Positions 1,802 through 41,166 are shown, counted from the first letter of the stretch. The stretch is DNA of 64,000 nt from Patescibacteria group bacterium (GCA_042568575.1 JBHPIO010000007.1:275-64274), one strand, 5' to 3'. Translations and numbers: made by a program. Notes: generated by a model from the sequence alone, not told the origin.

Positions 1802-1830
1802 TTGACAACTTTGACAATTTGGCTTATTAT
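1802..1830 (+). promoter_or_regulatory. sigma70-like promoter for the adaptor/RND operon
   Basis: TTGACA (1802-1807), 17-nt spacer, TATTAT (1825-1830). This places the TSS downstream of the TTG start used in the track and supports the ATG at 1861. Confidence 0.55.
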
Positions 1831-1860
1831 TCTCTCTCTTTTTTTCTGACCAATAAAGCA

Positions 1861-3888: not shown

Positions 3889-3900
3889 TTCTGAAACGAT

Positions 3901-9090: not shown

Positions 9091-9151
9091 GCTTGGCAAA
9101 AAAGAAGTACTTCTTTATACTCATGGTTAGAATTGATTAACCAATTCTTTA

Positions 9152-10129: not shown

Positions 10130-10136
10130 TTAATAT

Positions 10137-11759: not shown

Positions 11760-11798
11760 TTTTTGCGGTATAATTAATTGAAATAAAACATTAAAATT

Positions 11799-26378: not shown

Positions 26379-26407
26379 TTGACTTATCGGCGATTTTTTG
26401 ATAAACT
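26379..26407 (+). promoter_or_regulatory. promoter of the giant-ORF operon
   Basis: TTGACT (26379-26384), 17-nt spacer ending in TG (extended -10), TAAACT (26402-26407). Lies about 40 nt upstream of ATG 26447. Confidence 0.5.
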
Positions 26408-26446
26408 ATATGGATAAACTTTAAAGTATAAATAAAAACAAAAAAT

Positions 26447-26836
26447 ATGTTTTCCAAACTAATACACTCATTTTTCAATGATGATGACTCGCTCCTTGGC
26501 GCAAGTGAGCGTAGACTCGTAAACATGGCTCCAGGTGGTAAGAGAGCACCAAGAAATAAATTCGTGCCTCCAAAACCTGAAACTGCTAAGCGCCCAGAAA
26601 AACTTTCTGCATACGAGTATCACCAGAAGTTCGACAAAGTGATGAAACTAATGAAAGCGAACAAGGCGAAAGTGAGTCTTAGAATTATTCCAAGCCAAGG
26701 TAACAAAGTTGATCTTCCAACATTAAAAGCCGGATTAATTTCAAAAACAAAAAGACTGGCAGAACTCACTGTTGGGACAATTATAAAGAACACCCCCCCC
26801 AAGACAAAAAGCAAAAATGAAACAGCTTTTGAATAA
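26447..26836 (+). CDS. hypothetical basic protein; possibly the true N-terminus of the 2446-aa ORF
   Basis: 129 aa, K/P/R-rich like the linkers of the next ORF. Overlaps it by 20 nt. The C8 tract at 26793-26800 separates the two frames by exactly one nucleotide. Confidence 0.6.
   Translation: MFSKLIHSFFNDDDSLLGASERRLVNMAPGGKRAPRNKFVPPKPETAKRPEKLSAYEYHQKFDKVMKLMKANKAKVSLRIIPSQGNKVDLPTLKAGLISKTKRLAELTVGTIIKNTPPKTKSKNETAFE
26793..26800 (+). repeat. C8 homopolymer tract
   Basis: cacccccccc aag read directly. It is the only long G/C homopolymer I saw in this AT-rich window. Confidence 0.95.
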
Positions 26837-29800
26837 ATTCAAGGAAAATTTACTCGCAAGTATAAGAGATAAAATAACAACAAGAACTGCACTACTAAGA
26901 TTAAGTACAAAAGGCCTTCACTATTTGACTATCGATAAAGATGGGATGATTACGCTTAGCAAAAAAGGAACTGTAGATTATTCAAGTTTAAGTCTTGCAC
27001 CTGCATACGCAGCTAAACCTACTACAAAACCAGGTCAAAAAGCTGCTCCATCAGGAAGACGTAAGGCTACTGCTCCTACAAAAACACCAAAACCAAAACT
27101 AACTCCAAAACAACAAGCACAACTCGAAACTCAACAAAGAAAAGAGCTAATTAGAAAAGCTACTGTTCAGGCTCGAGCATTCCAAAGCCTTCTTAAGACA
27201 CCATACACTTGTACAGTTGATACTAAAAAAACAAGCGTCAATGTAAAAACCCAAACAATCTATATCGATATCCAAAAAAATGGAAAACCATTTGGAACTG
27301 TGCTTTGGGGACCAAAAATTAGCATTTTCCGATTTGAGTACTACGACGTAAATACAAAACAGTACAAAAAATATGGACCGCTTGTTACTACTAAGCAGTT
27401 AAGATCGCGAGTTCAAGATGTAACGAAGATGTGGAAAGTGGTTGGGAAAACACCTCCACTACCACAAAAACCTGGAAAAAAACCAGCCCATGCTACTAAA
27501 CCTACTCCAACAGCAACAAAGAAAGTAGCGCAAAAGCCAACTGCAAAACCTGCAGCGTCTGCAGAATTAAATAAACAAATCGTAGACCTCAAGAAAACTC
27601 TTGGACCAAAATATACTTACATATCAAAGCCTAAGTATGGAACTATTGAACTTTCGCTTCCTGGAAAACAACCATTCACAGCTTTAAAGAAAAGCGCAGA
27701 TGGTTCATGGGTTGTATACAAAAAAGAAGGCGGAAGATGGAAAGAATCTTATAGAGGAAAAAATATGGCAGCGTTTAAAGCTGATGTTGTAAGGCTTGCA
27801 GGAAGAAAGGCGGCACCAAAACCGCTTGCAAAACCTGCAACAGGACCTGTTGAAGTTGCAAAACAAAAAGCTATTCAAGCTGCAGAGAGAATTATTGGAA
27901 GAATCGAATATTATGACAAAGCTAGACAATATACTTTTACAATCGACAAAGCTAACAGTCATAAACATCTAGTAATTCTTGATGTTAAAAAAGGCGGAAA
28001 GGATTTAGGATCAATTCACATCTATAATCCTTTGGATGCAAAACCAACAATTACGTACACAGATACAACCAATAAGATGCATCGATACAGAAGAGCAGAT
28101 GCAACATTTATTGCAATTAACGCATACGCAAACAAAGTTGCTCCTGGGAAAGTACCTCCTGTTTCAAGAGGTGTTGCAAAGAAACCAACTGCTAAACCTG
28201 CAACTAAAGAGATCGACAAATCAAGTCCGCAATACAAAAGAGCTAGAGTAATATTCAAGCAAGGTATAAAAGAATTTGATGGTGGACATTATAAAAAAGC
28301 AATCATTACATTTAAAAAATCGCTTTCCTTAAGTCGAGATCCAAAAATTCATACTAGAATTGCATTATCATATAAATGGCTTGGAGAACCTAGAAAAGCA
28401 TTGAAACATTACAAATTATTTCTTAAGGATTTCAAACCCAAAACTGATAGAGACAAAGCATTACGAAGTCTCGTAGTTAGTAAAATGATCCCACAACTCG
28501 AAAAAGCCATTGCGAAACAGGGAGAAAAACAAAAAACTTCTCCAGAAAAGCAAAAGGCAATCGAAGCCGGAAAACTAAGAATCAAACAGCTTCAAAGAGT
28601 TCCTGGAGGAAAAGATTATAACTATAAAATAGATAGTGTTGTCAAAGGGTTTGCTTTTATACGTATTACAAATAAAAAAGGAGAACGGGTTGGATTTGCT
28701 GCGTTAGATCTTAGAAATAAGAGCAATGATATTGACTACAGCACTCCAGAAAGTAATAAAATACATAATCTAAAAGGCCCAAAAGCCCTAATAGCAGCAA
28801 TAAAAGCATACGAAAAAACTCTCGCTAAAAAAGAGGCGGTTAAAAAACGTACAACAGTTGATCGCAAAAAACTACGATCACAGATTGGACTTTCACAAGC
28901 TGCGGCAACTGAGAAATTCGGAAATCAAATGAATCCTGAAGTTAAAGGTCAGGTTACTTTCGAATTTGGAAAAGACAAACGTGGATCGTTTATTATTGTT
29001 AAATTTAAAGGTGGACGTAAAGGTCTGGCTGAACGCAAATTAACACTTGGTGAGTTATTCAAGTTCGTTGGAAACGACATCCCTCACAACATTCGTGTTA
29101 TAGGAAGAACATGGGGTGGCAGACAAGATAAAATAGGAACTTATTATTCTCATCTTAAAGAATTCCATCATATAAAAGGATCACGTCTTAGAGTTTACCA
29201 CGGAAATAAACTCTACTTTGGACCACGAAGATCTATCGCTATTGCCTCTTCTGCTGCAGAACCACTTAAGCAAGCACAACTTCGTGCAGAAGCTGCAAAA
29301 CGTAAAATAGAAGATACAAAAGAAAGAAAAAATTACGAAGCATTTAAAAAGAAATTAGGCGAGAGAGTTAGAATGCATGATGAAAGCATCAACTTAGCTC
29401 ATTTTGAGGCTTTTATGAATGATGAAGACTACGACGTTCCAAGATTTCTTCAAAGCGATTCTGATTGGAAAACTAACTGGAAATTTGTAAGCAGAGATCT
29501 TCTTAAAACACTAGCTTATCCTCCATTTAAAATTGGAAGAGTTGAGGCTCAAAGAAAATTCTTACAGGAAGCAATCCAACTTAGACTTGATAAATACATC
29601 CAACCAAGTGATTTCTTCAAAGTTAAAATTGAAGGACGATCTATATATAATGGTAGTTATTCTAAATTTAAGGGACGATACGAAGATTTACTTACAACAT
29701 TCGACAAAAAGGAAGTTGATCCATGGGGTGATACTTCAAAACTAAAACCTGCGGATAAAAAACTCGTTGCAGAATTCTTAAAAATGAACGAAACCATTAA

Positions 29801-32800
29801 AGGAATCGCTCGAGTTCTTGATGCACTTTCTAATGTAACTTTACACAAAAGAATGCCGGAAACTGCTGACGATAGATACAGACCACTTATGGTTGGTATT
29901 GGAGTTGCAGGAAAAGGTCAGAAAGAACATTACAAAAATGTTCCGAGTAAAAATTATCACTCATTAAAATCATTACTACATAAGCATGATGGTGCCCCTG
30001 AAGGAATTGCAATCGGAGCATCAGATAAAGTACTGGCAAATTTCAAAGGAGTATATTTTAATTACTTCCACGATGCTGAGCAAATAGCAGATTTTAAGAA
30101 AAAATATGTAGATGGTCCTGCAAATAAAGGGGGCTTGAAACTATTATTCATGTCATTTGGATTCAACTATCTAGTTGCCAAAGGATACCTTAGAAAACTT
30201 TCTAGCGATCCAAAAGACAAACGGTATATTCTTGTTAAAACACCTACAAGAAAAGAATGGGCAACTGCATTAAGCATGTTACCAAAACACAAACCAGCAC
30301 TATGGAGTAACGGAAAAGACAACTTCCAAAAATGGGAAAGAATCCGTGAATCACTTAACAGAAATAAAGCTGCTCAAAGATTTATTAATAAAATCTTTAG
30401 TAACTCACCTGCGGTTGATACTCGTCTAAAAGGACGATTAAAAAGCATGTTCAAAGCAGGTCGAAAGACTCTCGACATGGCGTACTTAAGTAAAGTTACT
30501 TATAACAATGAATTCTACGCAAGATTCATTTCGCCAGAACGAGGAAGAATCAGCTTTACTAACGACAACTTAAAAGACGCTCCTGAAAAAGGATCAAACG
30601 TATATGAATTAAATTCTCAAAAAGTACTCACAAAAGCTAACCTATATATATGGTTATCTTTATGGCACGATCTTTCATACGGATCTGCAGAAGGTAAATA
30701 CGAACAAACTGTAAATAAAATTGCAAAGGATTTCCATATTCCTGGAAGTGTACTTGCTAAGTTTGATACTTCAAATAATGCACCTCCAAAAGCAAGAAAA
30801 GCATTACTTGCAGAAATCTACAAAAGAATCGAATTAAAAAACCTTAATCCATCTAAAATTAATCCGGCTTACGGAGAATTTATCCGAACTGGTTTCGTAC
30901 TAGCTCGGCAACAACAGATGGCTGGAAACTTCGACAGCTTTGTTAAATCGCTTCCAGAAGGACTTTCTACAAAACCAATGTACAGAAAGCTTCAAATTGA
31001 AGCGTTCAAGAGAGGTTGTCCTATACATCAACTTCCTCAAATTGAACAACGTGTAAATGCGGCAATCTTTGCGACATTGAACATGGGATTTGATGCGGCA
31101 AAAAAGCTTGATTACGTTGAAGCATCAGCTGGTGGAGTTGTAAGTGTAAATATTGGTAAATGGCTTGGTGCGGAATGGAAAATTGGAATTTCTGGATTAG
31201 TTACTCTTGCTGGAGTTGCTGCAAGTGGAGGAATAGAAGCAGCATGGGCATGGGGTAAAGCAAAAAGATGGCAACTTGGATTCAAACTTGGTGCAGGTGC
31301 AGATGTAAGTTACGGTGGCGGTGTTGGATTCCACGCCGGTGCAGAAGCTACTTTCCAATTCCCTCTTGGGAAATCTGCATGGGATATGTACGCAAGTGCA
31401 TGGGCAGGTATTAGATACAAACAAGCAGCTCTTGGAATTGGTGGTGGTATTGATATCGGTGCTAAATGGAACCAGGCAGTTGCAGATAGAAAAGCAGAAA
31501 TTAAATCTGACTCAAAACGCAAGATTAAGGATATTGAAAAACTAAGATCAGCAGGAAAGATTAAAGAACTTGCTGCTGCACTTCGAAAACATCCTGTATT
31601 CGGAGACTGGTTCAAAGAATACGAAAGAAAAATGACTTCAATGAACTTACATGTTTCAGACGAAGTAATGGTAGATTTGTATACTCGAACAAAAGCATAC
31701 TGGCAGAACAAAGCTCGCGAAGGAGTTAAAGTTCCACCTGTAGTTGGAGTTGGAATACGAGTTATTCCATACCCTCCATTCGTTATACCTTATATAGATA
31801 TCAACATTGGTGGAAACAAAGTAATCTACACTACTCGTCGTGAACATCCTTTATATAACGAGAGAACTCAAACAAGGGTAAGTAATGAAGCAATAAATCA
31901 GAAACTCAAAAAACAAATCATGGCTAGGCACGGTTCAAGAGTTGTTTCTAAACTTAGCATCTTGGCAAAGAGTGGATCTCCATTCTACGATGCACGCGTT
32001 GGACGAACCAACGTTGTAAACCGTCCTGGAAAAGGTAGAGAAACAAGCTCGGTTAACTTTGGATCACGATTTGAATCGATCAAAAGTGCATTTGCTAAAC
32101 ATCACATACACATAAGACGAGTTAAATTAGCAGGTCATGGAAACGTAATTGAGCTTACTCCTTTAAGAACAGAGGGAAGTAACGTTGAATTCGTGATGCC
32201 TCCAGGACTTGGAAAAGCTGTAATTCTTGATAAAAGCAAGAACAGAGTACTTCTTGCAGCTAGCATGTTAAAGAAACTCTATATTACACGTCAAAGAATT
32301 GAACTCCCATATAGAGGGCATGGTGATGCTGTTAATAAAGAAGTAATCGTATTCAAGACAAACAGATATCAAACAACTAGTGAGATCAGACAGACTGCTC
32401 CACACACTATATATAAATACAGAAATCAAAAATACAGAATCGTTGCAGGATCTAGACGTGATTCAATTGAAGGCGGTGGAGACATTATAACACTTGCAGA
32501 ATTCAATAAACGAAGAGACCTTGCAAAAGAGCGCGCATCAAGAAAGATTCCAAAAATTCTTGATTACAAAACATATATGGCTCTTATCACACGTAAACCT
32601 CCTTTAAGTGATAAAGAATTGAGACTACATTTCGGTCATAGATATGGAAAATATGAAACCACTCAGGCCATTAGTAGATTCCAGGATCGTCTTAAAAAAG
32701 ACCGAGGTGATACAGCTGATATGCGCAAAGCATTACAATTTGAAAAAAAGGTTGGATTAGACGTAAAGAGAAGTGCTGAACTTCTTACTACAGTGAGTAT

Positions 32801-34157
32801 AGATTATTATAAGGATAATAAAAAATCGTTTGATAACCTTGTTGGAAGTATTAGCGGTGCAAGAGACAACGAAATGGGTATTAAACAGAAAATCTTTAAG
32901 AATATTCAATCATACGTAATCGGTGTAGTTGAGAAAGCCAAAGGTCGCAAACTTACAGCTGCAGAACGTGCTAAAGCAATGCCAACACAACACGAGCTGA
33001 ACTTGATGTATTCAATCATATTAGATCACAGTTTCGTTAAAGTACTTGGCGGACCTGATTGGAAGATTAAACGTCGAATTGAGGCACGTAACAAACTATT
33101 TAAAGCTTATTTAAAAACATCAATTAAAGATTGGAAACGAAAATATCCAAATCAATGGAAGCGCATTAAAGAGAATGTTGATAATATGCCGGAATCAAAA
33201 CGAATTGGTTTCAAACTTACTATCGAAACTCTTGCAAACCACATTGTTCTAACAATGCCTCAAACAGTTAAACAGCTAAAGGAATTTATTAAATCAAAAA
33301 CAAAGCCAATCGGTGCAGGTATGAGATTCGCATCTTACTCACAAAGAAGTGCGAAAAACAAAGCAATGCCGGCAACATATGGTATGGAAAATCATCCAGT
33401 AGCACTCGCTAAGTCTGGAATTTTCAGATTGATTAATGCTCAGCCACAAAACTTAAACTCTCCAAAACCTTTGGAAAGAGCTGCAGCTAGAACAATTCTA
33501 TCAATGCTTTCACCTTTGGATACAGGTAAAAAGAGGCTTGATAGTCCAAATGAAACTATTAAAGCAAAATCACGAGCTGCATTCTTGAAGTCAGACTTAC
33601 CAATACTATTACTGTCGCTTCAAGATCCAAACCTAAAAGTATCTCCTCTGATAAGAGTTCTTGGAAGAGATAAATTTAATCAAATTACCGAGCTTTATAA
33701 GGGTATTAAAAAAGGATTAGACAAACCGAAAGATCCTAAAGAATGGATCACACTATTAAATAAAAATGAAGCTGCATTCCAAATCTTTAGAGCGTTTGTA
33801 GAAAAAGTAAGACACGCTCAATTAAACAATCCTCCAGTTAATAAAGAAGGAGATAAGGAAGTAGTGTTCGGGAAATCAATTATCCGAATCCATACAGAAC
33901 TAGGATCAGGAGGATACCTAAAATGTATGAACGGAACAGTTTACCTAAAACGAAGCTTCTCATTCAGTTCAACTGATACAGAAAGACACGAATGGGTGGT
34001 TGCAAGCGACAAACGTCGAACAGGAGTTATCAACAGATCGGGTAAAGCTGCTAGAAAACTCGCTGTTGGTGCAGGATTATGGGCATCCGCTAAAGGCAAA
34101 AAACGGCCCCCAGGTGGAAGACGTCCACCTAAGCAAACAGCACAAGGTAGACGTTAG
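26817..34157 (+). CDS. giant Lys/Arg-rich protein (2446 aa), function unknown
   Basis: Uninterrupted 7.3-kb ORF. N-terminal repeated modules joined by P/T/K/A linkers, a TPR-like stretch, a central Gly/Ala/Trp-rich segment and a basic C-terminal tail (KGKKRPPGGRRPPKQTAQGRR). No N-terminal signal peptide seen. Confidence 0.85.
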   Translation: MKQLLNKFKENLLASIRDKITTRTALLRLSTKGLHYLTIDKDGMITLSKKGTVDYSSLSLAPAYAAKPTTKPGQKAAPSGRRKATAPTKTPKPKLTPKQQAQLETQQRKELIRKATVQARAFQSLLKTPYTCTVDTKKTSVNVKTQTIYIDIQKNGKPFGTVLWGPKISIFRFEYYDVNTKQYKKYGPLVTTKQLRSRVQDVTKMWKVVGKTPPLPQKPGKKPAHATKPTPTATKKVAQKPTAKPAASAELNKQIVDLKKTLGPKYTYISKPKYGTIELSLPGKQPFTALKKSADGSWVVYKKEGGRWKESYRGKNMAAFKADVVRLAGRKAAPKPLAKPATGPVEVAKQKAIQAAERIIGRIEYYDKARQYTFTIDKANSHKHLVILDVKKGGKDLGSIHIYNPLDAKPTITYTDTTNKMHRYRRADATFIAINAYANKVAPGKVPPVSRGVAKKPTAKPATKEIDKSSPQYKRARVIFKQGIKEFDGGHYKKAIITFKKSLSLSRDPKIHTRIALSYKWLGEPRKALKHYKLFLKDFKPKTDRDKALRSLVVSKMIPQLEKAIAKQGEKQKTSPEKQKAIEAGKLRIKQLQRVPGGKDYNYKIDSVVKGFAFIRITNKKGERVGFAALDLRNKSNDIDYSTPESNKIHNLKGPKALIAAIKAYEKTLAKKEAVKKRTTVDRKKLRSQIGLSQAAATEKFGNQMNPEVKGQVTFEFGKDKRGSFIIVKFKGGRKGLAERKLTLGELFKFVGNDIPHNIRVIGRTWGGRQDKIGTYYSHLKEFHHIKGSRLRVYHGNKLYFGPRRSIAIASSAAEPLKQAQLRAEAAKRKIEDTKERKNYEAFKKKLGERVRMHDESINLAHFEAFMNDEDYDVPRFLQSDSDWKTNWKFVSRDLLKTLAYPPFKIGRVEAQRKFLQEAIQLRLDKYIQPSDFFKVKIEGRSIYNGSYSKFKGRYEDLLTTFDKKEVDPWGDTSKLKPADKKLVAEFLKMNETIKGIARVLDALSNVTLHKRMPETADDRYRPLMVGIGVAGKGQKEHYKNVPSKNYHSLKSLLHKHDGAPEGIAIGASDKVLANFKGVYFNYFHDAEQIADFKKKYVDGPANKGGLKLLFMSFGFNYLVAKGYLRKLSSDPKDKRYILVKTPTRKEWATALSMLPKHKPALWSNGKDNFQKWERIRESLNRNKAAQRFINKIFSNSPAVDTRLKGRLKSMFKAGRKTLDMAYLSKVTYNNEFYARFISPERGRISFTNDNLKDAPEKGSNVYELNSQKVLTKANLYIWLSLWHDLSYGSAEGKYEQTVNKIAKDFHIPGSVLAKFDTSNNAPPKARKALLAEIYKRIELKNLNPSKINPAYGEFIRTGFVLARQQQMAGNFDSFVKSLPEGLSTKPMYRKLQIEAFKRGCPIHQLPQIEQRVNAAIFATLNMGFDAAKKLDYVEASAGGVVSVNIGKWLGAEWKIGISGLVTLAGVAASGGIEAAWAWGKAKRWQLGFKLGAGADVSYGGGVGFHAGAEATFQFPLGKSAWDMYASAWAGIRYKQAALGIGGGIDIGAKWNQAVADRKAEIKSDSKRKIKDIEKLRSAGKIKELAAALRKHPVFGDWFKEYERKMTSMNLHVSDEVMVDLYTRTKAYWQNKAREGVKVPPVVGVGIRVIPYPPFVIPYIDINIGGNKVIYTTRREHPLYNERTQTRVSNEAINQKLKKQIMARHGSRVVSKLSILAKSGSPFYDARVGRTNVVNRPGKGRETSSVNFGSRFESIKSAFAKHHIHIRRVKLAGHGNVIELTPLRTEGSNVEFVMPPGLGKAVILDKSKNRVLLAASMLKKLYITRQRIELPYRGHGDAVNKEVIVFKTNRYQTTSEIRQTAPHTIYKYRNQKYRIVAGSRRDSIEGGGDIITLAEFNKRRDLAKERASRKIPKILDYKTYMALITRKPPLSDKELRLHFGHRYGKYETTQAISRFQDRLKKDRGDTADMRKALQFEKKVGLDVKRSAELLTTVSIDYYKDNKKSFDNLVGSISGARDNEMGIKQKIFKNIQSYVIGVVEKAKGRKLTAAERAKAMPTQHELNLMYSIILDHSFVKVLGGPDWKIKRRIEARNKLFKAYLKTSIKDWKRKYPNQWKRIKENVDNMPESKRIGFKLTIETLANHIVLTMPQTVKQLKEFIKSKTKPIGAGMRFASYSQRSAKNKAMPATYGMENHPVALAKSGIFRLINAQPQNLNSPKPLERAAARTILSMLSPLDTGKKRLDSPNETIKAKSRAAFLKSDLPILLLSLQDPNLKVSPLIRVLGRDKFNQITELYKGIKKGLDKPKDPKEWITLLNKNEAAFQIFRAFVEKVRHAQLNNPPVNKEGDKEVVFGKSIIRIHTELGSGGYLKCMNGTVYLKRSFSFSSTDTERHEWVVASDKRRTGVINRSGKAARKLAVGAGLWASAKGKKRPPGGRRPPKQTAQGRR
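27114..29200 (+). repeat. protein-level repeats: about 5 diverged modules of 80-100 aa plus a TPR-like insert
   Basis: Recurring cores: YTCTVDTKKTSVNVKTQTIYIDIQKNGKPFGTV / YTYISKPKYGTIELSLPGKQPF / YTFTIDKANSHKHLVILDVKKGGKDLGSIHIY / YNYKIDSVVKGFAFIRITNKKGERVGFAALD / VTFEFGKDKRGSFIIVKFKGGRKGLAE. They are separated by KP/TP/AP-rich linkers. Confidence 0.6.
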
Positions 34158-34197
34158 CATTATTCATTAATTACTTATATATATAACTTTATAAAAA

Positions 34198-34689
34198 ATG
34201 AAAACACCAAACAGACTAAAAAATGTTTTTATCGGAGTCGTTATCCTAGCAATTATTCTACTTGGGATAGGATGGCTCTACCTACAATCTCAAGACACAG
34301 CTCTTGAAATTATCACTGACAAACCCGCGTATTTCGCAACTGATAACCCAGAGCTGCAAATCGTTCTCCGAAACCCTAAGGGAGCAAATGAAGGAGAGGT
34401 GATTGTAAACTATCCAGAATCTTTGATCTCAATCATGGAATCCGAGGTAGCTACAGGAGTTAATATGAGAAACATGGATAACGCCATCGTTTTTGAACTT
34501 TCTGATGAATATTTCAAAAACTATACGGCGGTGATCGCGACATTAAAAATGGAAAAAGTAGAGAGAGAGCAAATTGATATCGAGTTCGATCAAGAGAAAT
34601 CAAGTTTAAACTCACCTGAAGGAGCGGTCCAGGTAGCAAGCTACAAAGATGCTCATTTTGCATATGGACAAGCCGGAGGGCGTAGATAA
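34198..34689 (+). CDS. hypothetical signal-anchored protein
   Basis: 163 aa with an N-terminal hydrophobic helix (VFIGVVILAIILLGIGWLYL) then a beta-rich domain. Located between the two giant ORFs. Confidence 0.65.
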   Translation: MKTPNRLKNVFIGVVILAIILLGIGWLYLQSQDTALEIITDKPAYFATDNPELQIVLRNPKGANEGEVIVNYPESLISIMESEVATGVNMRNMDNAIVFELSDEYFKNYTAVIATLKMEKVEREQIDIEFDQEKSSLNSPEGAVQVASYKDAHFAYGQAGGRR

Positions 34690-34722
34690 TCATATCATTT
34701 AAATCATTAATAAATATAAAAA

Positions 34723-37700
34723 ATGAAAACAAAAAACCTCATAAAAAGCATTGTAGCTCTGATAGTAACAGGAGCTTTGCTATCTCTCTTTTCTTATGTT
34801 GCTATTGCGGCATTTGGATCCCAGCACAATCATTCCAGTAAATGTGATAGCCAAAATTGTGTAACCTGGCATAACAATGGTTATTCAATGAACGGCAAAT
34901 ACAAGAATGGTGTACCTTTCGCTACATTTAACGGATATAAAGACAATAGATCCGAAGATGGAATGCCATTTGATGAACGTCAGTTCATGTATATTGAATC
35001 AGAATATGCTGATCATGACGGACAATACCCTGCTCCAAGAAGTCCTTGGGACTTTAGAGTAGAAGATCATGGTTTACAACCATATAACTTCTCACAGGGA
35101 ACAAGCCATCACATTAATTTTGGAAACAGCGACGAACCCGTTTATGTAGGTTTTTGGGCATATGTTCATAACAATGGTGTAGCAGATCAACACGAAGCAG
35201 AATATTCACGAATAAAAATTACAGACTATTACGGGACATCGACATCACACAATCCAAAATATACTTTATGGGCACAGAACACTAAACCTCGAATTGTTTT
35301 TGCTGACACACAAGTAACTGGTAGCAAACCTTTCTCTCTTAACCTAGTAGAAGGATATTATGATAGAGAATCTAATTCTCCAGGATTTGCAGATAACAGA
35401 AAAATGACACAAGCACAATTAAATCAAGTTAGAAGCGCAGGTGGATTATCAATTAGTAGTAATGCACAGTATGACAACAATACTAAAGCAGGGATCATAG
35501 ATTCTTCAGATCTTCACTATATGGTTGTATATCTGGAATTCGAAGCAGTTCCGCAGGATACGCCAGAATGTAGATCTCTAAATATCAGCTTCCCATCAGA
35601 TGCTGTTGATGGTCAATCAAACATCTTCAATGTTCCATCTTGGGAATCTCCCGAGGGTGGTTTCTCTGATCAAATCATGCAAATTCAGATTGATGCTGAT
35701 CCAGGATCATACACAAGATTCCAATACATCACTCCAAATCCGGATGATGTTAAATTTAAAAGATATATTGCAGACACAGATCTAACTCAGAACTTATTTA
35801 CAAACAATCAATACGTATACCTCGATGGTGAACCTGATGAAGGTGACACTCAATACCTAATGGTATTCGCAGTTGATGAAAATGATGACTGGGTAGGTGG
35901 AAGCTGTGCGGATGCAGTTAAAATAGTAAGACCAGATATATCTGAATGTGCAGAATTAAACACAGATCCAGGTCGATCACATCAATATGATCTAATGGCT
36001 GGAGAAGAAGTAGACATTAGTGTTGATAATATTACTGATACTGATGGAGAGGATTTCCGTCCTGAAGGAGAAGTTCCTTTACTTGAATACTGTTACTCAG
36101 GAGATATTGATTGGAACTGGAGTGAAAATAATATTTTCCCATCTCCTGGTGGTGATGAACCAGAAATTGCACCATTTGCACGACCTGAACTTCAACTAAT
36201 GAGACCTGAATTACAAATTGCACCATATTTAACTGATGATTTCCTAATTAATCCGGAAATTCAGGCTCCTTTCGATCCGGAAGAAGTAATGAACCCGGAA
36301 TCAAATTATCTACAAGTTACTGAAGGGATGATTCTTAAAACAAAAGTACTTCCAGGAGTAGCTGAATCGTACGACCTTAATGCAACAGCAACAGGCGTAG
36401 CGGTTCCTGCCGTAACTGGAACGGCAATTGGTGAAGCAGTTACTAGTGAACCGTATGAACTACCTTTATCACTTGGAGAACCAATTTCTATTGATGCTCT
36501 ACAGTTTGCACCTGCTATTGCAGCTGTAGATGTTGAAAGCACTTCACTAACAGCACCAAGAGCAATTGAAGCATCACCTGCAGCAATTTCAGCACCTGGA
36601 CTGGCTGTTGAAGCTACTCTAGCACCTGTTGCAGAAAGCTTAGTTTCTCCAAGACTACAACTTATACCTCAATTATTATACTTTAATCCACATTGTGTAA
36701 TCGCACCAGCTGACCAAGTGCTAAACGATGTTGTACCACTAGAACCGGGAACAATGACAATCCGTGCACTTGATGCTCCTGAAATTTGTTGGGACAGCTT
36801 TGATGTTGGAGGCGGACAATGTATAGACCTTGAAATTAATGAAGATTCATTTGAACCAGACAATTCAGTTTACACAGTTACTGTAAACGTTAATCCAGAT
36901 ACAACTGATTACAGTGTTACATGGATTGTAGAACGTCCAGGTCATGATGGACCACTTATCGCAGTAACAACTGAAGGTACTGATCGTGACACTGTTGATC
37001 TTTCGGAACATGGTTACACATATGAAGACGGAGACAGACTACACGCTCAAGCAATCTCTGATAACCAGGAGTTTGATCCTAATGCAGTTTGTGTGGATGT
37101 ACTAGAACGTGCAGCTGGTCAGTGTGTGGATCTCGATATTGATCAAGATGAATTCACTGAAGACAACTCACAGTATTCAGTTACCGTAGATGTTGAACCA
37201 GATGACGAAGATTACAGAGTAAGATGGACTGTATTTAGAGACGGTGAACCTAACCCTGTACTTGATGTTACAACAGAAGGTGCAGCAGTTAACGAAATCG
37301 ACCTAGACGACTACTCTACTTATACATATGAAGAAGGAGATACTCTCCATGTTGAAGCAATTGATATTAACGATCCAAATAATAACTGTATCGACGAATT
37401 GGTTGCCGAACTAGGAGAATGTCTTGATTTATACCTCGATCAGGATGAATTTGAAATCGAAGATCCTACATACAATGTAAATGTAGAAACAGATCCATCA
37501 AATGCAGAATACGATGTTCTTTGGACAATCGAGCGTGATGGTGACACAGAACTTGAGGTTGTTACAGAAGGTGACTTCCTTGATCTTCGAGATTACTCAA
37601 ACTACACACCTGAAGCTGGAGATTCACTTCGAGCGCAGGCAATTGCAATTGATGATCCTGACAATCTTTGTATAGATGAAATCGATAGCCAAACACCGGA

Positions 37701-40050
37701 AGGTGAATGTCTTGATCTTGATATCGAACAAAACAGATTTGATCCTTCTGAGGATGAATATTCTGTAGATGTTGAGACAGATCCAGATGGCGAATACTAC
37801 AGAGTTGAATGGACTGTTGAACGTGACGGAGACTTTGTATTCCGTGCACGACTTTCAGACGACGAAATCGACTTTGATGATTATCCTGGATTCGACGCAG
37901 AATTCGGAGATACTCTGGAAGCTAGAGCAATCGATATTAGCGATCCAGACGATGTGTGTATCGATGCAATCTCTTCTCCAATTGAAGAAGGAGAATGTAT
38001 CGACCTAAACTTTAATCAAAGTGAATTTAATGTTAGCGATTCTACTTACAGTGTAGATGTTGAAGTAGATCCTGACTCAGCAGCATATCGTGTTGAATGG
38101 ACTGTACATCGTGGTAGAGATACTGTCCTAAGAGTTCGAACACGAAGAGATTATGTAGATTTAAGTGACTATCCAGGATACTGGAATTCAGCACAGCCAG
38201 GTGATGTATTACGTGCTCGTGCTATTGATATCGAAGATCCTGACAACGAATGTAGAGACGTACTTGAAAGTGAAGAAGAAGTATGTCGAGAATTCGAACT
38301 TGATCGAAACACATTCTCGAGAACAAGTGATCAGGAAATCTGTGTCGATTATACTGATTGGCCATACTTCGATGAATTACGTTACAGAATTGATGGTCAT
38401 GATGAAGGTTACGTTAACGTAGACGAATCACTTTGCTTCATCCTTGAAGAAGAAGACGTGAGAAACGCAAGCGATATCGAAATCTGGATAGATGGATTCT
38501 ATCAGGATTGTAGAGACGATCTTGAATATAAAGAACGTCCACCTCGATTCGATAAACGTGTTACAGACACAGCTCCGTCAAACTATACTCATAGAGCAGT
38601 TACCGATTGGGTTGGAGGAGATGTAGACTACATAATTAATTATGAACATTCTAACGCCAACGAACAAACTGTTGTAATTACAGATACAATCGGACGAAAT
38701 GGTGGTTATATCCAAGGTTATATTAAAAACAATAGAGGAGAAATCCTTGGAGAAAGCGGATCCCTTGATTATAACAATGACATGGAAATCAACGTCCCTG
38801 AATGTGACGGCGAAGATTACGATAGTGATTCCGACTTCTGTTATGAAGGAGATATTGGTGACGAGGACGGAGTAACTGTTTACAACGTTCCTGATAGCAG
38901 AGAAATCATTATTAGATATTCTGCTGAAATTAATAGTGAAGTTGATCCTAAAGAATGTAGTGACCCAACTTCAGCCTTTAACCGTCTTGGTTACTGTGGT
39001 GAAATTTACGACAACACTTCGGACTTCGTGGACGACACTGATAACGGTGCAAGAAGCACTGAAGTTTACATCCCTTGTCCTTATATCGTAATCCGAGCTG
39101 GTGGTGATGTATTCCTAGAAAACCCATTCGATTATGGTGTTGATACTCTAGTTTGTGCGGAAATCGCGAACGTTCCAGAAACAATTATCGAACCGGAACC
39201 TCCAAAACCAGAAGAGCTTGAAAAGACTGGTGGAGAAAACACTATTATCCCGGTAATGGATCACAGACTATGTCAGCAACAAGGTGAAATGTCACCTGAA
39301 GGATATAGAGGAATCGACAAGCTTTCTAGTTTGATTTGTGAAGTTTCTTTGGAAGTTTCTGAAGAACTTACACAAGCTGCAATTGTTCAAAACATCAATA
39401 CAAATAAGGAACGAATTGCAAGATACGATAAGAATCTAAACCTTTCTACTGGATGGAATAAAAATATTACTGGTGACAGTTCTGATGCACTTCCTAAATC
39501 TAATAATAATGTATATTACAAAGATGACGGAGATCTTCACTTCGATAATGGTGCTGCCGACGTAGTATTCACAAAAGGAGCACGAACATTCATCGTAGAA
39601 GGTCATGATGTATATATTGATAGCAATATCAGATACGAAGACGCATCACTTGCTGATCCTCGTGATATTCCATCAATCGCAATTATCGTAATTGGCGGAA
39701 ACATTGTAATCGCTGACGAAGTTTCGGAAACTACTGGTGTATTCTTCGTTCAAGAAGATCCAAAACGAGGCGTTGGAGGACAAATCTGTGAAGAACCTGT
39801 TGATCCGGCTAACCTTTGTGACGAAGATGCTGAAGCAGACGTGAGAGAGGCATATAACTCAAAGCGATATACTCAATTCGGGTCGATCTATGGTGATCTC
39901 CAACATCTATTCAAGTTTAGAACTGCTGCTGGTGATCCAAGATTCGAAGAAGGTGCTGTAGTTATCAGATTTGATAACAGGGTATTCCTAAATACTCCAC
40001 CGATCTTAAATGAACTTGTTCAGTTAAGTATCTCTGAAGCAGCGCTTTAA
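34723..40050 (+). CDS. giant Asp/Glu-rich secreted or surface protein (1775 aa), function unknown
   Basis: N-terminal signal/anchor (SIVALIVTGALLSLFSYVAIAAF), a globular N-domain, a P/A/V-rich spacer, 5-6 Cys-bracketed tandem repeats and a large C-terminal region. Confidence 0.88.
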   Translation: MKTKNLIKSIVALIVTGALLSLFSYVAIAAFGSQHNHSSKCDSQNCVTWHNNGYSMNGKYKNGVPFATFNGYKDNRSEDGMPFDERQFMYIESEYADHDGQYPAPRSPWDFRVEDHGLQPYNFSQGTSHHINFGNSDEPVYVGFWAYVHNNGVADQHEAEYSRIKITDYYGTSTSHNPKYTLWAQNTKPRIVFADTQVTGSKPFSLNLVEGYYDRESNSPGFADNRKMTQAQLNQVRSAGGLSISSNAQYDNNTKAGIIDSSDLHYMVVYLEFEAVPQDTPECRSLNISFPSDAVDGQSNIFNVPSWESPEGGFSDQIMQIQIDADPGSYTRFQYITPNPDDVKFKRYIADTDLTQNLFTNNQYVYLDGEPDEGDTQYLMVFAVDENDDWVGGSCADAVKIVRPDISECAELNTDPGRSHQYDLMAGEEVDISVDNITDTDGEDFRPEGEVPLLEYCYSGDIDWNWSENNIFPSPGGDEPEIAPFARPELQLMRPELQIAPYLTDDFLINPEIQAPFDPEEVMNPESNYLQVTEGMILKTKVLPGVAESYDLNATATGVAVPAVTGTAIGEAVTSEPYELPLSLGEPISIDALQFAPAIAAVDVESTSLTAPRAIEASPAAISAPGLAVEATLAPVAESLVSPRLQLIPQLLYFNPHCVIAPADQVLNDVVPLEPGTMTIRALDAPEICWDSFDVGGGQCIDLEINEDSFEPDNSVYTVTVNVNPDTTDYSVTWIVERPGHDGPLIAVTTEGTDRDTVDLSEHGYTYEDGDRLHAQAISDNQEFDPNAVCVDVLERAAGQCVDLDIDQDEFTEDNSQYSVTVDVEPDDEDYRVRWTVFRDGEPNPVLDVTTEGAAVNEIDLDDYSTYTYEEGDTLHVEAIDINDPNNNCIDELVAELGECLDLYLDQDEFEIEDPTYNVNVETDPSNAEYDVLWTIERDGDTELEVVTEGDFLDLRDYSNYTPEAGDSLRAQAIAIDDPDNLCIDEIDSQTPEGECLDLDIEQNRFDPSEDEYSVDVETDPDGEYYRVEWTVERDGDFVFRARLSDDEIDFDDYPGFDAEFGDTLEARAIDISDPDDVCIDAISSPIEEGECIDLNFNQSEFNVSDSTYSVDVEVDPDSAAYRVEWTVHRGRDTVLRVRTRRDYVDLSDYPGYWNSAQPGDVLRARAIDIEDPDNECRDVLESEEEVCREFELDRNTFSRTSDQEICVDYTDWPYFDELRYRIDGHDEGYVNVDESLCFILEEEDVRNASDIEIWIDGFYQDCRDDLEYKERPPRFDKRVTDTAPSNYTHRAVTDWVGGDVDYIINYEHSNANEQTVVITDTIGRNGGYIQGYIKNNRGEILGESGSLDYNNDMEINVPECDGEDYDSDSDFCYEGDIGDEDGVTVYNVPDSREIIIRYSAEINSEVDPKECSDPTSAFNRLGYCGEIYDNTSDFVDDTDNGARSTEVYIPCPYIVIRAGGDVFLENPFDYGVDTLVCAEIANVPETIIEPEPPKPEELEKTGGENTIIPVMDHRLCQQQGEMSPEGYRGIDKLSSLICEVSLEVSEELTQAAIVQNINTNKERIARYDKNLNLSTGWNKNITGDSSDALPKSNNNVYYKDDGDLHFDNGAADVVFTKGARTFIVEGHDVYIDSNIRYEDASLADPRDIPSIAIIVIGGNIVIADEVSETTGVFFVQEDPKRGVGGQICEEPVDPANLCDEDAEADVREAYNSKRYTQFGSIYGDLQHLFKFRTAAGDPRFEEGAVVIRFDNRVFLNTPPILNELVQLSISEAAL
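36811..38540 (+). repeat. tandem protein repeats (5 clear units plus 1 degenerate), about 288-306 nt each
   Basis: Unit starts are at about 36811, 37117, 37414, 37702 and 37990, with a degenerate unit from 38281. Each unit runs G(E/Q)C(I/L/V)DL..(E/Q)..F......Y.V.V...PD...Y.V.W.V.R.G........... D(L/F)..Y......GD.L.A.AI...DP.N.C(I/V)D. Confidence 0.9.
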
Positions 40051-40070
40051 GAAAACAAATTTTAATTGAA

Positions 40071-40103
40071 AGAGTCCCGTAGAAATGCGGGGCTCTTTTT
40101 TTA
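40071..40103 (+). terminator. rho-independent terminator of the giant-ORF operon
   Basis: 9-bp stem (agagtcccg / cggggctct, one G-U pair), 8-nt loop, then a T-rich run starting 21 nt after the stop codon. Confidence 0.8.
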
Positions 40104-40176: not shown

Positions 40177-41163
40177 ATGGCAAAAAAGAATAACGTATTT
40201 CTTTTTTACGGAGAGGAAACTTACTTAGCTCATCAGAAGCTAAAGCTTTGGCGTGAAAAGTTTGAGGAGAAGTATGGTGGGGATATGAACATTGCCCAAT
40301 TGGAAGGCAAGGGTTTGCAATCTTCAGATTTGGAGAGCGATATCCAGTCAGCTCCTTTTTTGGCTGAAAAGAGGCTTGTTATAGTTACAGACTTTTTAGC
40401 AAAGGGAACAAAAGACGAACAAAAAAAAGTTGCGGAGATATTAGAAAAAGAAGTCCCTGACTTCTGCATTCTCGTTTTTTCGGAAGATAAAATGCCAGAC
40501 AAACGTGCGTCACTTTATAAAAAACTAAATAAAGTCGGAAATCTGGAAGAATTTACTGCATTAATGGGGCACTCGCTTGCAAAATGGATTATGGATAGAG
40601 CGGTAGAGAAAGAAATGAAGATTCCAATGGCAATGGCAGATTATCTCGGAGAAGTTGCAGGGAGTGATCTTTGGAATCTTGAAAACGAACTAAATAAACT
40701 AAAAATGTATAGTCGAGAAAAACCAATCACGAAGGAAGCAATCGACGATCTTGTTCATCCGAATTTAACAACAACTATCTTTAAGTTTACAGACTATCTT
40801 GCTCAAAGAAATCCGAAAGGTTCACTTCACACCTTGCATATTTTGCTTGAAAGCGGCGAAGATATTGTGAAAATTTTGTTTATGATTGTGAGACATTTCA
40901 GAATTCTTATTCAAGTTAAAGATCTTGTAGATCGTGGAACAAGAAAGCCTGATATTGTTTCTAGGCTCAAGCAGCACCCTTATACAATCTCAACAACAAT
41001 GCAACAAAGCCCCAACTTTTCTCCGCAATCACTACGGAAAGTTTATGAGGCTTTGCTACAAATTGATATAGGTCTTAAGACCGGTAAGATACGACTTTTA
41101 GCTGATGACAAGAAAGAAATCTTGCTGGCACTCGAACAGTTTGTTCATACTGTTTGTGCCTAG
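40177..41163 (+). CDS. holA: DNA polymerase III subunit delta
   Basis: 328 aa with a delta-subunit N-terminal pattern (VFLFYGEETYL..) and a C-terminal helical domain. Confidence 0.8.
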   Translation: MAKKNNVFLFYGEETYLAHQKLKLWREKFEEKYGGDMNIAQLEGKGLQSSDLESDIQSAPFLAEKRLVIVTDFLAKGTKDEQKKVAEILEKEVPDFCILVFSEDKMPDKRASLYKKLNKVGNLEEFTALMGHSLAKWIMDRAVEKEMKIPMAMADYLGEVAGSDLWNLENELNKLKMYSREKPITKEAIDDLVHPNLTTTIFKFTDYLAQRNPKGSLHTLHILLESGEDIVKILFMIVRHFRILIQVKDLVDRGTRKPDIVSRLKQHPYTISTTMQQSPNFSPQSLRKVYEALLQIDIGLKTGKIRLLADDKKEILLALEQFVHTVCA

Positions 41164-41166
41164 AAA

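What the first reader, a model, noticed from the sequence alone, without database searches (positions are those of the whole stretch)
26379..40103. 13.7-kb self-contained operon built around two giant, oppositely charged ORFs with no recognisable catalytic domain
**Layout.** A promoter-like element (TTGACT-N17 with TG-TAAACT, 26379-26407) precedes four co-directional ORFs:
- 129 aa, basic
- 2446 aa, very Lys/Arg-rich, with no N-terminal signal peptide
- 163 aa, signal-anchored
- 1775 aa, very Asp/Glu-rich, with a signal/anchor helix

The operon closes with the clearest terminator in the window (40071-40103).

**Why it stands out.** The cassette takes more than 20% of a window that is otherwise streamlined housekeeping genes. 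I could find no HExxH, P-loop, GxSxG, CxxC or other catalytic motif in either giant.

**Hypothesis.** A strongly cationic giant encoded next to a strongly anionic secreted giant suggests an electrostatically matched pair. This could be, for example, a surface or host-attachment apparatus of an episymbiotic small-genome bacterium. The function is pure inference.
Basis: partly seen in the sequence, partly recalled or inferred. Interest (0 to 1): 0.85.

Follow-up and report, generated by a model that had tools for sequence, protein, structure and literature searches.

The report
Conserved giant-protein envelope operon in Peregrinibacteria
A three-gene operon (not four) encoding a giant basic protein, a small membrane protein and a large acidic secreted protein sits at the same chromosomal spot in every related Peregrinibacteria (CPR) genome I could inspect, matches no known protein family, and most likely builds a cell-surface or attachment structure.

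Summary
The ORFs, charges (+257 and −254), N-terminal anchors, promoter and terminator are all real. One correction: the 129-aa ORF is the frameshifted N-terminus of the giant. The break lies in a C8 run, the only G/C homopolymer of 7 or more in 64 kb, so there are three genes.

The triad giant – small TM protein – acidic Cys-rich secreted protein lies between tpiA and holA in every informative Peregrinibacteria/Peribacteria locus (11 of 11). This holds even where the giants share about 21–24% identity. All three genes are under purifying selection (dN/dS 0.08–0.16).

Pfam, NCBIfam, PHROGs, PADLOC, PDB sequence and profile searches and Foldseek gave no significant match. An exhaustive HMMER scan of 1.84 billion proteins found only 23 relatives of the giant.

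Low-to-moderate-confidence models suggest the acidic protein is a chain of β-sandwich domains with five ~96-aa repeats. The giant appears to be an α/β scaffold with a Gly/Ala/Trp-rich β-meander that weakly resembles membrane β-barrels.

The electrostatic-pair idea is only partly supported. Charges nearly cancel in 6 of 11 loci, but the deepest relatives have near-neutral giants, and the phylogenetically corrected correlation is not significant (r=0.43, p=0.18).

Most likely this is a clade-specific envelope or attachment apparatus. The mechanism is inferred, not shown.

The parts
26379..26407 (+). Sigma-70-type promoter: TTGACT, 17-nt spacer, extended -10 TG-TAAACT
   Evidence: Found by the scan. 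The -35 TTGAC and TGnTAnAnT are invariant across six divergent loci whose flanks are otherwise unalignable.
26447..26836 (+). N-terminal ~120 codons of the giant gene, read as a separate 129-aa ORF because of a frameshift. It carries the family's N-terminal motif E[SNQ][RK]x[VIA][FW] (here SERRLVN).
   Evidence: Aligns to residues 1-119 of the uninterrupted giants in L001 and L005. N-terminal alignment of 13 family members.
26793..26800 (+). C8 homopolymer at the frame break. A C7 tract would restore one ~2566-aa ORF.
   Evidence: It is the only G/C run of 7 nt or more in 64 kb and is absent from the relatives. Whether it is a sequencing error, phase variation or slippage cannot be decided without reads.
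26817..34157 (+). Main ORF of the giant basic protein: 2446 aa, pI 10.2, net charge +257, 3 Cys, no signal peptide, no TM helix
   Evidence: dN/dS is 0.13-0.16. Only 23 relatives were found among 1.84 billion representative proteins.
26817..28766 (+). Lineage-specific, fast-evolving N-terminal expansion (residues 1 to ~650): small beta-like modules separated by K/P/A/T-rich linkers, plus a weak TPR-like stretch at about residues 470-540
   Evidence: This region is gapped in the distant relatives. pN/pS is 0.4-0.6 here against 0.1-0.2 in the core. Weak TPR hits.
31125..31469 (+). Gly/Ala/Trp-rich block (residues 1437-1551), modelled as a meander of seven long antiparallel beta-strands. Candidate membrane-interacting element.
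   Evidence: AF2 model. Local Foldseek hits to BamA, FapF, LptD, OmpT and designed TM barrels at E 0.2-1. Composition is 22% G, 18% A, 7% W, with the highest beta-amphipathic moment in the protein. One family member gives a weak Pfam OMP_b-brl hit.
31743..31832 (+). Second conserved hydrophobic element (residues ~1643-1672, VVGVGIRVIPYPPFVIPYI...)
   Evidence: This is the most hydrophobic 19-mer in the close relatives. The aligned region in distant L014 is a 43-residue TM-grade stretch with KD 2.5.
32043..32492 (+). Most conserved beta-rich domain of the giant (residues ~1743-1892)
   Evidence: Identity to the distant relatives is highest here, 0.42-0.44. Modelled as beta-rich with pLDDT 75-87.
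34198..34689 (+). Small bitopic membrane protein: 163 aa, an N-terminal TM anchor at residues 4-32 and a ~130-aa beta-rich domain predicted to lie outside the membrane
   Evidence: Ten-member alignment. dN/dS 0.09. Reduced to a 56-aa TM-only ORF in L014 and absent in L015.
34723..40050 (+). Acidic, Cys-rich exported protein: 1775 aa, pI 4.05, net charge -254, 32 Cys, with an N-terminal signal peptide or anchor at residues 4-33
   Evidence: dN/dS 0.08. The AF2 model of homologue P0006 is all-beta. Foldseek matches are generic Ig/FN3/MG beta-sandwich chains and S-layer proteins.
36817..38283 (+). Five tandem ~96-aa repeats (residues ~699-1187), each bracketed by a Cys pair. This is a variable-length 'stalk'. 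It is preceded by a P/A/E-rich linker at residues ~470-660.
   Evidence: The repeats are visible by eye and confirmed by repeated hits of the family HMM. Relatives of ~1180 aa carry fewer copies. There is no DNA-level tandem repeat.
38290..40047 (+). Conserved C-terminal module of the acidic protein (residues ~1190-1775), shared with even the most distant partners
   Evidence: Many invariant columns. hmmsearch against the L014 and L015 partners gives E 1e-71 to 1e-91 over this module.
40068..40103 (+). Intrinsic terminator: a GC-rich hairpin followed by a U-run
   Evidence: dG -23.6 kcal/mol, z -5.7, and none of 200 shuffles folds as well.

Best explanation
This is a vertically inherited three-gene operon, specific to Peregrinibacteria, that builds part of the cell envelope or surface.

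Proposed roles:
- Gene 3, the acidic, disulfide-rich chain of beta-sandwich domains, is exported through Sec. It forms the exposed component: a fibre, coat or adhesin. Its length is set by the number of ~96-aa repeats.
- Gene 2, the small bitopic protein, acts as a membrane tether or assembly adaptor.
- Gene 1, the giant with no signal peptide, stays on the cytoplasmic side or partly within the membrane. It would be held there by two conserved hydrophobic elements, the Gly/Ala/Trp beta-meander and the element at residues ~1643-1672. There it would serve as the anchoring scaffold.
- In most lineages the giant's strong positive charge suits binding to anionic lipids or polymers. It may also be balanced against the acidic partner.

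Shown here: operon structure, conserved co-occurrence, purifying selection, exported versus non-exported sequence features, repeat architecture, and absence of any known family.

Inferred: localisation of the giant, physical association of the three proteins, and the attachment or coat function.
For: - Synteny: tpiA<-|->giant-small-acidic->holA occurs in 11 of 11 informative loci from Peregrinibacteria/Peribacteria MAGs, SAGs and one closed chromosome. It persists where the giants share about 21-24% identity.
- A promoter conserved by phylogenetic footprint, gaps of only 33-40 nt between the genes, and a strong terminator together indicate one transcription unit.
- dN/dS is 0.08-0.16, similar to the neighbouring tpiA at 0.11.
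- The acidic protein has an N-terminal signal or anchor, 24-32 conserved Cys, an all-beta model, and Foldseek matches to strings of Ig/FN3/MG domains and to S-layer proteins. Its repeat number varies between lineages.
- The giant has no signal peptide in any of 13 members and is only 0.1% Cys, against 1.8% in its exported partner.
- The giant's two conserved hydrophobic elements include one that is TM-grade in L014. Its beta-meander weakly matches membrane beta-barrels.
- Literature: Peribacteria encode large Cys-rich extracellular proteins proposed to function in attachment (PMC4736985). The sister-clade Vampirococcus has a fibrous coat attributed to giant membrane proteins (PMC8080830).
Against: - There is no experimental or expression evidence.
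- Model confidence is low for the acidic family (mean pLDDT 54) and moderate for the giant (mean pLDDT 66).
- All Foldseek matches are either generic or non-significant (E of 0.2 or more for the barrel-like hits).
- Most giants lack a clear TM helix, so membrane association is conjecture.
- A barrel-like beta-meander would normally lie outside the cytoplasm, which conflicts with a cytoplasmic location.
- The middle gene is dispensable in the deepest relatives.
- A housekeeping neighbourhood with strict single-copy synteny would also fit a non-surface, cell-biological role.
Confidence: 0.5

Rival explanations
1. Electrostatic 1:1 complex. The basic giant and the acidic protein bind each other through complementary charge. 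The giant would be exported by an unknown route, and the neutral complex would form the surface structure.
For: - Net charges nearly cancel in 6 of 11 loci: +272/-254, +215/-217, +90/-96, +100/-97, +147/-137 and +180/-158. The magnitudes differ threefold across these loci.
- The raw correlation is r=0.67, p=0.02, and 8 of 10 independent contrasts have the same sign.
- The two genes always co-occur.
Against: - The phylogenetically corrected correlation is r=0.43, p=0.18.
- Five loci do not cancel, with sums of -58 to -197. These include the two deepest relatives, whose giants are near-neutral.
- No member of the giant family has a signal peptide, so the two proteins are predicted to sit in different compartments.
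- Acidity is common in Ca-binding tandem-repeat surface proteins and needs no basic partner (general knowledge, not tested here).
Confidence: 0.2
2. Contact-dependent pore or effector. The giant is delivered to a host cell, and its Gly/Ala/Trp beta-meander oligomerises into a beta-barrel in the host's outer membrane. The acidic protein and the small protein would serve as the attachment and delivery parts.
For: - The beta-meander has TM-barrel-like composition and strand lengths.
- The only structural matches are to BamA, FapF, LptD, OmpT and designed TM barrels, plus one weak Pfam OMP_b-brl hit.
- Seven strands cannot close a barrel alone, which suggests oligomerisation (inference).
- CPR bacteria are thought to have a single membrane, and the related Vampirococcus attacks Gram-negative hosts (PMC8080830).
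Against: - All barrel matches are non-significant (E 0.2-1).
- No secretion signal or dedicated secretion genes lie in the operon.
- Conservation is uniform, with no polymorphic toxin-like C-terminus: pN/pS is 0.13-0.2 at the C-terminus.
- There are no PADLOC or PHROG hits.
- The host of this organism is unknown.
Confidence: 0.12
3. The giant is a cytoplasmic, nucleic-acid- or membrane-binding cell-biological scaffold (nucleoid, division or polarity). It would merely be co-transcribed with an unrelated S-layer-like exoprotein.
For: - The giant has pI about 10, is Lys-rich, carries H1-like K/P/A/T linkers, and has no signal peptide and almost no Cys.
- It sits among replication, translation and cell-wall genes in strict single-copy synteny.
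Against: - The deepest homologues are not basic.
- The tight gene pairing has been kept over deep divergence, which argues for a functional link.
- The conserved hydrophobic elements are unexplained by this reading.
- No nucleic-acid-binding domain was detected.
Confidence: 0.13
4. Artefact, or mobile or phage-derived DNA. The long ORFs would be assembly errors, or a horizontally acquired cassette such as a tape-measure-like or polymorphic toxin gene.
For: - The frameshift at the C8 run could hint at sequence error.
- There are weak HK97-gp10-like and tape-measure hits.
- GC content is slightly higher in the acidic gene (0.40 against ~0.36).
Against: - The same ORFs are intact in independent assemblies from different studies.
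- dN/dS is far below 1.
- The locus sits at a fixed core-genome position with no integrase, tRNA or repeats nearby.
- No PHROG family matches.
- The weak Pfam hits do not recur across family members.
Confidence: 0.02

Closest known systems
Large, Cys-rich extracellular proteins of Peribacteria (Anantharaman et al. 2016, PMC4736985)
   Same: Same phylum-level lineage. The acidic protein is large, carries a signal peptide, contains many conserved Cys, has no functional annotation, and differs between related lineages in length and repeat number. Attachment is the role proposed for these proteins.
   Different: The cluster in that paper averages 7.2% Cys, whereas this protein has 1.8%. The paper does not describe a conserved pairing with a giant basic protein lacking a signal peptide, nor the tpiA/holA synteny. 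I did not test homology to the proteins listed there.
Giant membrane/surface proteins of Vampirococcus lugosii (Absconditabacteria; PMC8080830)
   Same: A sister CPR clade with a single membrane and a fibrous coat. Its proteins of 1392-4163 aa are proposed to mediate host recognition and attachment.
   Different: Those proteins carry recognisable domains (WD40, PKD, DUF11, integrin, fibronectin, saposin). Neither giant here matches any Pfam family. No homologues outside the Peregrinibacteria-type family turned up in the exhaustive search.
Tandem Ig-like-repeat surface adhesins and S-layer proteins (RTX/Bap-type adhesins, cadherin-like repeat proteins, Sap/SbsB-type S-layers)
   Same: Acidic pI, an all-beta multi-domain chain, a variable number of ~100-aa repeats forming an extender, and Foldseek matches that include S-layer proteins and cadherins.
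   Different: No SLH, CWB2, LPxTG, RTX or T1SS-signal features are present. The global TM-scores of about 0.1 support only a generic fold class. The Cys pairs bracketing each repeat are atypical for S-layer proteins.
Outer-membrane beta-barrel proteins (BamA/FapF/OmpT class; Pfam OMP_b-brl)
   Same: The Gly/Ala/aromatic-rich alternating pattern, strands of 12-14 residues, and these being the only local structural matches for the giant's central block.
   Different: The block lies in the middle of a ~2500-aa protein without a signal peptide. It has seven strands, the matches are non-significant (E 0.2-1), and the organism presumably lacks an outer membrane.
Homopolymer-tract contingency (phase-variable) surface-protein genes, e.g. 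the poly-G/C tracts of Campylobacter and Neisseria (general knowledge)
   Same: A unique C8 tract in a 36% GC genome sits in the 5' coding region of an envelope-related gene, in the out-of-frame state.
   Different: The tract is absent from the relatives. No read-level or between-assembly length variation could be examined. A homopolymer sequencing error explains it equally well.

Membership tests
Any curated protein family (Pfam-A, NCBIfam, PHROGs, PADLOC) | A profile-HMM match at or above the curated cutoff, or a weak match that recurs across divergent family members | tested here: not met
   No family reaches its cutoff for any of the three proteins. Scanning 9 acidic-family and 8 basic-family members individually gave no recurring weak hit. 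Distant homologues also have none.
Proteins with solved structures (PDB) | Sequence, profile or fold similarity to a solved chain | tested here: not met
   phmmer and profile hmmsearch gave nothing below E 0.01. For the giant, Foldseek gave no match at E <= 0.001. For the acidic family, only generic Ig/FN3-chain matches appeared, with TM about 0.1.
Tandem-repeat surface adhesin / S-layer protein | N-terminal export signal | tested here: met
   A hydrophobic segment at residues 4-33 preceded by Lys residues and followed by an AxA-like site. It is conserved across the family.
Tandem-repeat surface adhesin / S-layer protein | Tandem beta-sandwich repeats forming an extender | tested here: met
   Five ~96-aa repeats, in a low-confidence all-beta model.
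Tandem-repeat surface adhesin / S-layer protein | A known cell-wall or membrane anchoring or secretion module (SLH, CWB2, LPxTG sortase motif, RTX/T1SS C-terminus) | tested here: not met
   No such Pfam domains and no LPxTG motif.
Outer-membrane beta-barrel / autotransporter (T5SS) | A signal peptide plus a beta-barrel domain with a significant profile or fold match | tested here: not met
   None of 13 giants has a signal peptide. Barrel-like matches reach only E 0.2-1. One member gives a weak OMP_b-brl hit at E 0.0016, below the cutoff.
Polymorphic toxin / CDI / Rhs systems | A variable C-terminal toxin domain with an adjacent small immunity gene; Rhs/YD or filamentous haemagglutinin repeats | tested here: not met
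   The giant's C-terminus is conserved (pN/pS 0.13-0.2). No such repeats or domains are present. The locus is in fixed core synteny.
Phage tape-measure or tail proteins | A PHROG or Pfam tail-family match and a phage gene neighbourhood | tested here: not met
   No PHROG hits. The HK97-gp10-like hit falls below the cutoff and appears in 2 of 8 members. The neighbours are housekeeping genes.
Phase-variable contingency locus | A homopolymer tract in the coding region whose length changes switch the reading frame | tested here: met
   C8 at 26793-26800 breaks the frame, and C7 would restore it.
Phase-variable contingency locus | Tract-length polymorphism within the population or between strains | not testable with these tools
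   No reads are available. The junction was not found in other public assemblies. The relatives lack the tract.
   In 6 of 11 loci the net charges sum to within 22 of zero. The raw correlation is r=0.67, p=0.02. Independent contrasts give r=0.43, p=0.18. The deepest relatives have neutral giants.

The most novel reading that the evidence does not exclude
The triad is a previously unrecognised type of envelope-spanning or host-contact machine, specific to Peregrinibacteria. A giant cationic protein is exported without a signal peptide and carries an embedded, oligomerising beta-barrel-forming segment. It is stoichiometrically charge-neutralised by, and assembled with, an acidic disulfide-rich stalk protein. 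The structure would bridge to, or perforate, the membrane of a host cell. Expression in this strain may be switched by a poly-C tract.
Probability: 0.1. Interest if true: 0.85.

Novelty: new variant of a known kind. Interest (0 to 1): 0.6.

Why it matters
CPR bacteria such as Peregrinibacteria are uncultured, have small genomes and are thought to live attached to other cells. How they attach and build their envelope is largely unknown.

This locus takes about 13.7 kb of a genome likely to be little over 1 Mb; the one closed relative is 1.37 Mb. It is kept at the same position under housekeeping-level constraint across the clade. It has no detectable relative among 1.84 billion representative proteins outside that clade. 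That marks it as a lineage-defining structural system and a concrete target for cryo-ET, proteomics and heterologous expression.

If the charge compensation or the barrel-like segment proves functional, it would be a new way to assemble a surface or contact structure.

Tried and rejected
- The third word-indexed homology search, using the basic-family alignment, was saturated by Lys-rich words. It returned only the three close homologues.
It was rerun with three permitted rows.
- The A7 alignment was too divergent to derive DNA patterns. A3 was used instead.
- Self-BLAST for internal repeats listed no off-diagonal hits. The repeats were confirmed with the family HMM instead.
- TRF found no DNA-level repeats.
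- A search for the frameshift junction in genome and metagenome collections found nothing. An exact-match lookup of the small protein also found nothing. The homopolymer question therefore stays open.
- Weak single-sequence hits were rejected as noise because they fall below cutoff and do not recur across family members. These were TPR/MamA, HK97-gp10-like, Polyketide_cyc2, DUF7604, SpoIIIAF and others.
- Phage, defence-system, polymorphic-toxin and assembly-artefact readings were considered and rejected (see rivals and membership tests).
- Rfam and tRNA scans of the window found nothing.

Full report
**Observation**

The four co-directional ORFs exist exactly as described.
- The 2446-aa ORF has pI 10.2 and net charge +257, spread along its whole length. 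It has 3 Cys and no hydrophobic segment.
- The 163-aa ORF has an N-terminal TM-grade segment at residues 4-32.
- The 1775-aa ORF has pI 4.05, net charge -254, 32 Cys and an N-terminal hydrophobic segment at residues 4-33.
- These two giants have the most extreme charge densities among the large ORFs in the window.
- Regex confirms that HExxH, P-loop, GxSxG, CxxC and LPxTG are absent.
- The neighbours are ordinary chromosomal genes: tpiA, hpf, a Wzy_C protein, murein ligase, truB, dnaG and rpoD upstream; holA, gatA, ftsX and relA downstream.

**Correction: three genes, not four**

The 129-aa ORF aligns to residues 1 to ~119 of the uninterrupted giant in the two closest relatives. Residue 1 of the 2446-aa ORF aligns to their residue ~115-120.

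Reading the three frames shows frame 0 (...IIKNTPP) continuing in frame +1 (PRQKAKMKQLLNKFKENLLASIR). This matches the relatives' ILRNTPASQRAKMRKFLQKFQKNLLASIR.

The switch occurs in a C8 tract at 26793-26800. It is the only G/C homopolymer of 7 nt or more in the 64-kb window, and the relatives lack it. A C7 tract would restore one ORF of about 2566 aa.

No other public copy of this junction could be found. I therefore cannot distinguish between a homopolymer sequencing error, a phase-variable 'off' state, and rescue by slippage.

**Operon signals**

The promoter-like site at 26379-26407 is one of many consensus matches; the region has fewer such matches than shuffled sequence. However, an alignment of the upstream regions of six divergent loci shows an invariant TTGAC and an extended -10 (TGnTAnAnT) at fixed spacing, within otherwise unalignable DNA. 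That is a good phylogenetic footprint.

The gaps between the genes are 40 and 33 nt. The hairpin at about 40068-40103 has dG -23.6 kcal/mol and z -5.7, and is followed by a U-run.

**Conservation and co-occurrence**

The word-indexed search found only two close homologues of the giant and nine of the acidic protein. All come from Patescibacteria/Peregrinibacteria sources and none is annotated.

Genomic context shows the order tpiA<-|->giant-small-acidic->holA in all of the following:
- L001 and L002 (the same contig as L005);
- a Peregrinibacteria MAG;
- seven further species-representative genomes, including a closed 1.37-Mb chromosome;
- a single-cell genome found by searching from the giant's side.

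An exhaustive HMMER search of 1.84 billion representative proteins with the giant's C-terminal 1200 residues returned only 23 proteins, nearly all of them family members or fragments.

The most distant hits, P0030 and P0034, share ~21-24% identity where BLAST can align them. They occupy the same tpiA/holA slot. Each is followed by an acidic, Cys-rich protein with a signal peptide that shares the C-terminal ~450-aa module (E 1e-71 to 1e-91). In these two loci the small gene is reduced to 56 aa or absent.

In every locus where downstream sequence exists (11 of 11), the giant is followed by the acidic partner.

Codon analysis gives dN/dS of 0.13-0.16 for the giant, 0.09 for the small gene and 0.08 for the acidic gene, against 0.11 for tpiA. 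Only the giant's N-terminal ~700 residues evolve faster. These are real, constrained, vertically inherited genes.

**What the proteins look like: the acidic family**

This family has strongly conserved N-terminal (~1-460) and C-terminal (~1190-1775) modules with many invariant Cys.

Between them, the window's protein has a P/A/E-rich linker and five tandem ~96-aa repeats, each bracketed by a Cys pair. Relatives of ~1180 aa have fewer repeats.

An AF2 model of the 1186-aa homologue P0006 has low confidence (pLDDT 54) but is all-beta. Foldseek returns only generic chains of Ig/FN3/MG domains, S-layer proteins and cadherins, at global TM about 0.1.

**What the proteins look like: the giant**

The first ~650 residues of the 2446-aa ORF are a lineage-specific expansion of small modules and K/P/A/T-rich linkers.

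The AF2 model of residues 1247-2446 used 16 sequences and reached pLDDT 66. It shows, in order:
- a helical domain;
- a meander of seven long beta-strands at residues 1437-1551;
- a conserved beta-domain;
- a large helical domain;
- a C-terminal sheet.

No Foldseek match is significant. The only recurring local matches are of the meander to transmembrane beta-barrels at E 0.2-1.

That block is 22% Gly, 18% Ala and 7% Trp, and has the highest beta-amphipathic moment in the protein. One family member gives a weak OMP_b-brl hit.

A second hydrophobic element at residues ~1643-1672 becomes a 43-residue TM-grade stretch in L014.

No giant has a signal peptide, but they share a short N-terminal motif, E[SNQ][RK]x[VIA][FW].

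Pfam, NCBIfam, PHROGs, PADLOC and PDB sequence and profile searches found nothing at accepted thresholds, and no weak hit recurs across members.

**The charge hypothesis**

The giant/acidic net charges at the 11 loci are:

| Locus | Giant | Acidic |
|---|---|---|
| window | +272 | -254 |
| L001 | +143 | -244 |
| L005 | +215 | -217 |
| L007 | +90 | -96 |
| L008 | +100 | -97 |
| L010 | +31 | -124 |
| L011 | +147 | -137 |
| L013 | +35 | -119 |
| L021 | +180 | -158 |
| L014 | -8 | -50 |
| L015 | -16 | -181 |

Six loci cancel to within 22 charges. The raw Pearson correlation is r=0.67, p=0.02.

Independent contrasts on an NJ tree of the giants give r=0.43, p=0.18, with 8 of 10 contrasts of the same sign.

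Acidity of the exported partner is universal. Basicity of the giant is not. The matched-pair idea is therefore suggestive but unproven, and the two proteins are predicted to lie on opposite sides of the membrane.

**Interpretation**

The best-supported reading is a clade-specific envelope or surface apparatus:
- an exported, disulfide-stabilised, repeat-extended acidic surface protein;
- a small bitopic adaptor;
- a giant, membrane-associated internal scaffold.

This fits what the literature proposes for large Cys-rich exoproteins in Peribacteria (PMC4736985). It also fits the account of giant membrane proteins forming the fibrous coat of the sister-clade Vampirococcus (PMC8080830).

Localisation of the giant, physical association of the products and the attachment function are all inferences.

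The rivals are set out separately: an electrostatic complex, a host-directed pore or effector, a cytoplasmic scaffold co-transcribed with an S-layer-like protein, and an artefact or mobile element. The last is essentially excluded.

**Novelty and score**

Large unannotated surface proteins are a known feature of this part of the CPR. What was not found in the literature searched here:
- the conserved triad and its fixed position;
- the giant partner without a signal peptide and its barrel-like block;
- the partial charge compensation.

None of the three proteins belongs to any known family. I rate it a new variant of a known kind, with interest 0.6. It is a real, well-defined experimental target, but its function is still inferred.

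Noticed in passing
window 26793-26800: A C8 tract, the only G/C homopolymer of 7 nt or more in 64 kb of ~36% GC DNA, lies exactly at the frameshift that splits the giant gene. It could be a phase-variation switch, a slippage site or a sequencing error.
   Followed up: partly
L005 (= L002) 7532-12799: In the closest NCBI relative (GCA_024275695.1), the acidic gene is split into three consecutive ORFs of 1315, 126 and 268 aa that together align to the window's single 1775-aa ORF. These are either frameshifts or stops in that MAG, or real decay.
   Followed up: partly
window 41163-41167; L001 24411-26708; L005 13966-16332: A glnA (- strand) plus trmB-family regulator pair sits between holA and gatA in L001, L005 and L014. 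glnA also follows holA in L008, L011 and several other loci. The pair is missing in the window, where holA abuts gatA, as it does in L007, L010 and L013. This is an indel polymorphism right next to the cassette.
   Followed up: no
window 1819-7056: A long HlyD-type membrane-fusion protein (689 aa) is followed by an AcrB-type RND pump (1051 aa). No outer-membrane factor gene was noticed nearby, in a lineage presumed to have a single membrane.
   Followed up: no
window 50815-51432 and 48066-49880: Two further ORFs have no convincing Pfam match. One is a 205-aa basic (net +26), 3.4% Cys protein with no hit. The other is a 604-aa acidic (net -61) protein with only a below-cutoff DUF713 hit. A 504-aa unannotated ORF occupies the same position, between relA and a Yip1-domain gene, in L003.
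   Followed up: no
window 11799-13196 and 58039-60084: A 465-aa ORF downstream of pyrG has no Pfam match. A 681-aa protein carries a class I/II aminotransferase domain only in residues ~269-472, so it has large unannotated N- and C-terminal parts.
   Followed up: no
window 1-64000: No tRNA, tmRNA or Rfam family at gathering threshold was found anywhere in the 64 kb.
   Followed up: yes
L014 9477-9974: In the most divergent locus, an extra 165-aa ORF with no Pfam hit lies between tpiA and the giant. It is absent from all other loci.
   Followed up: no
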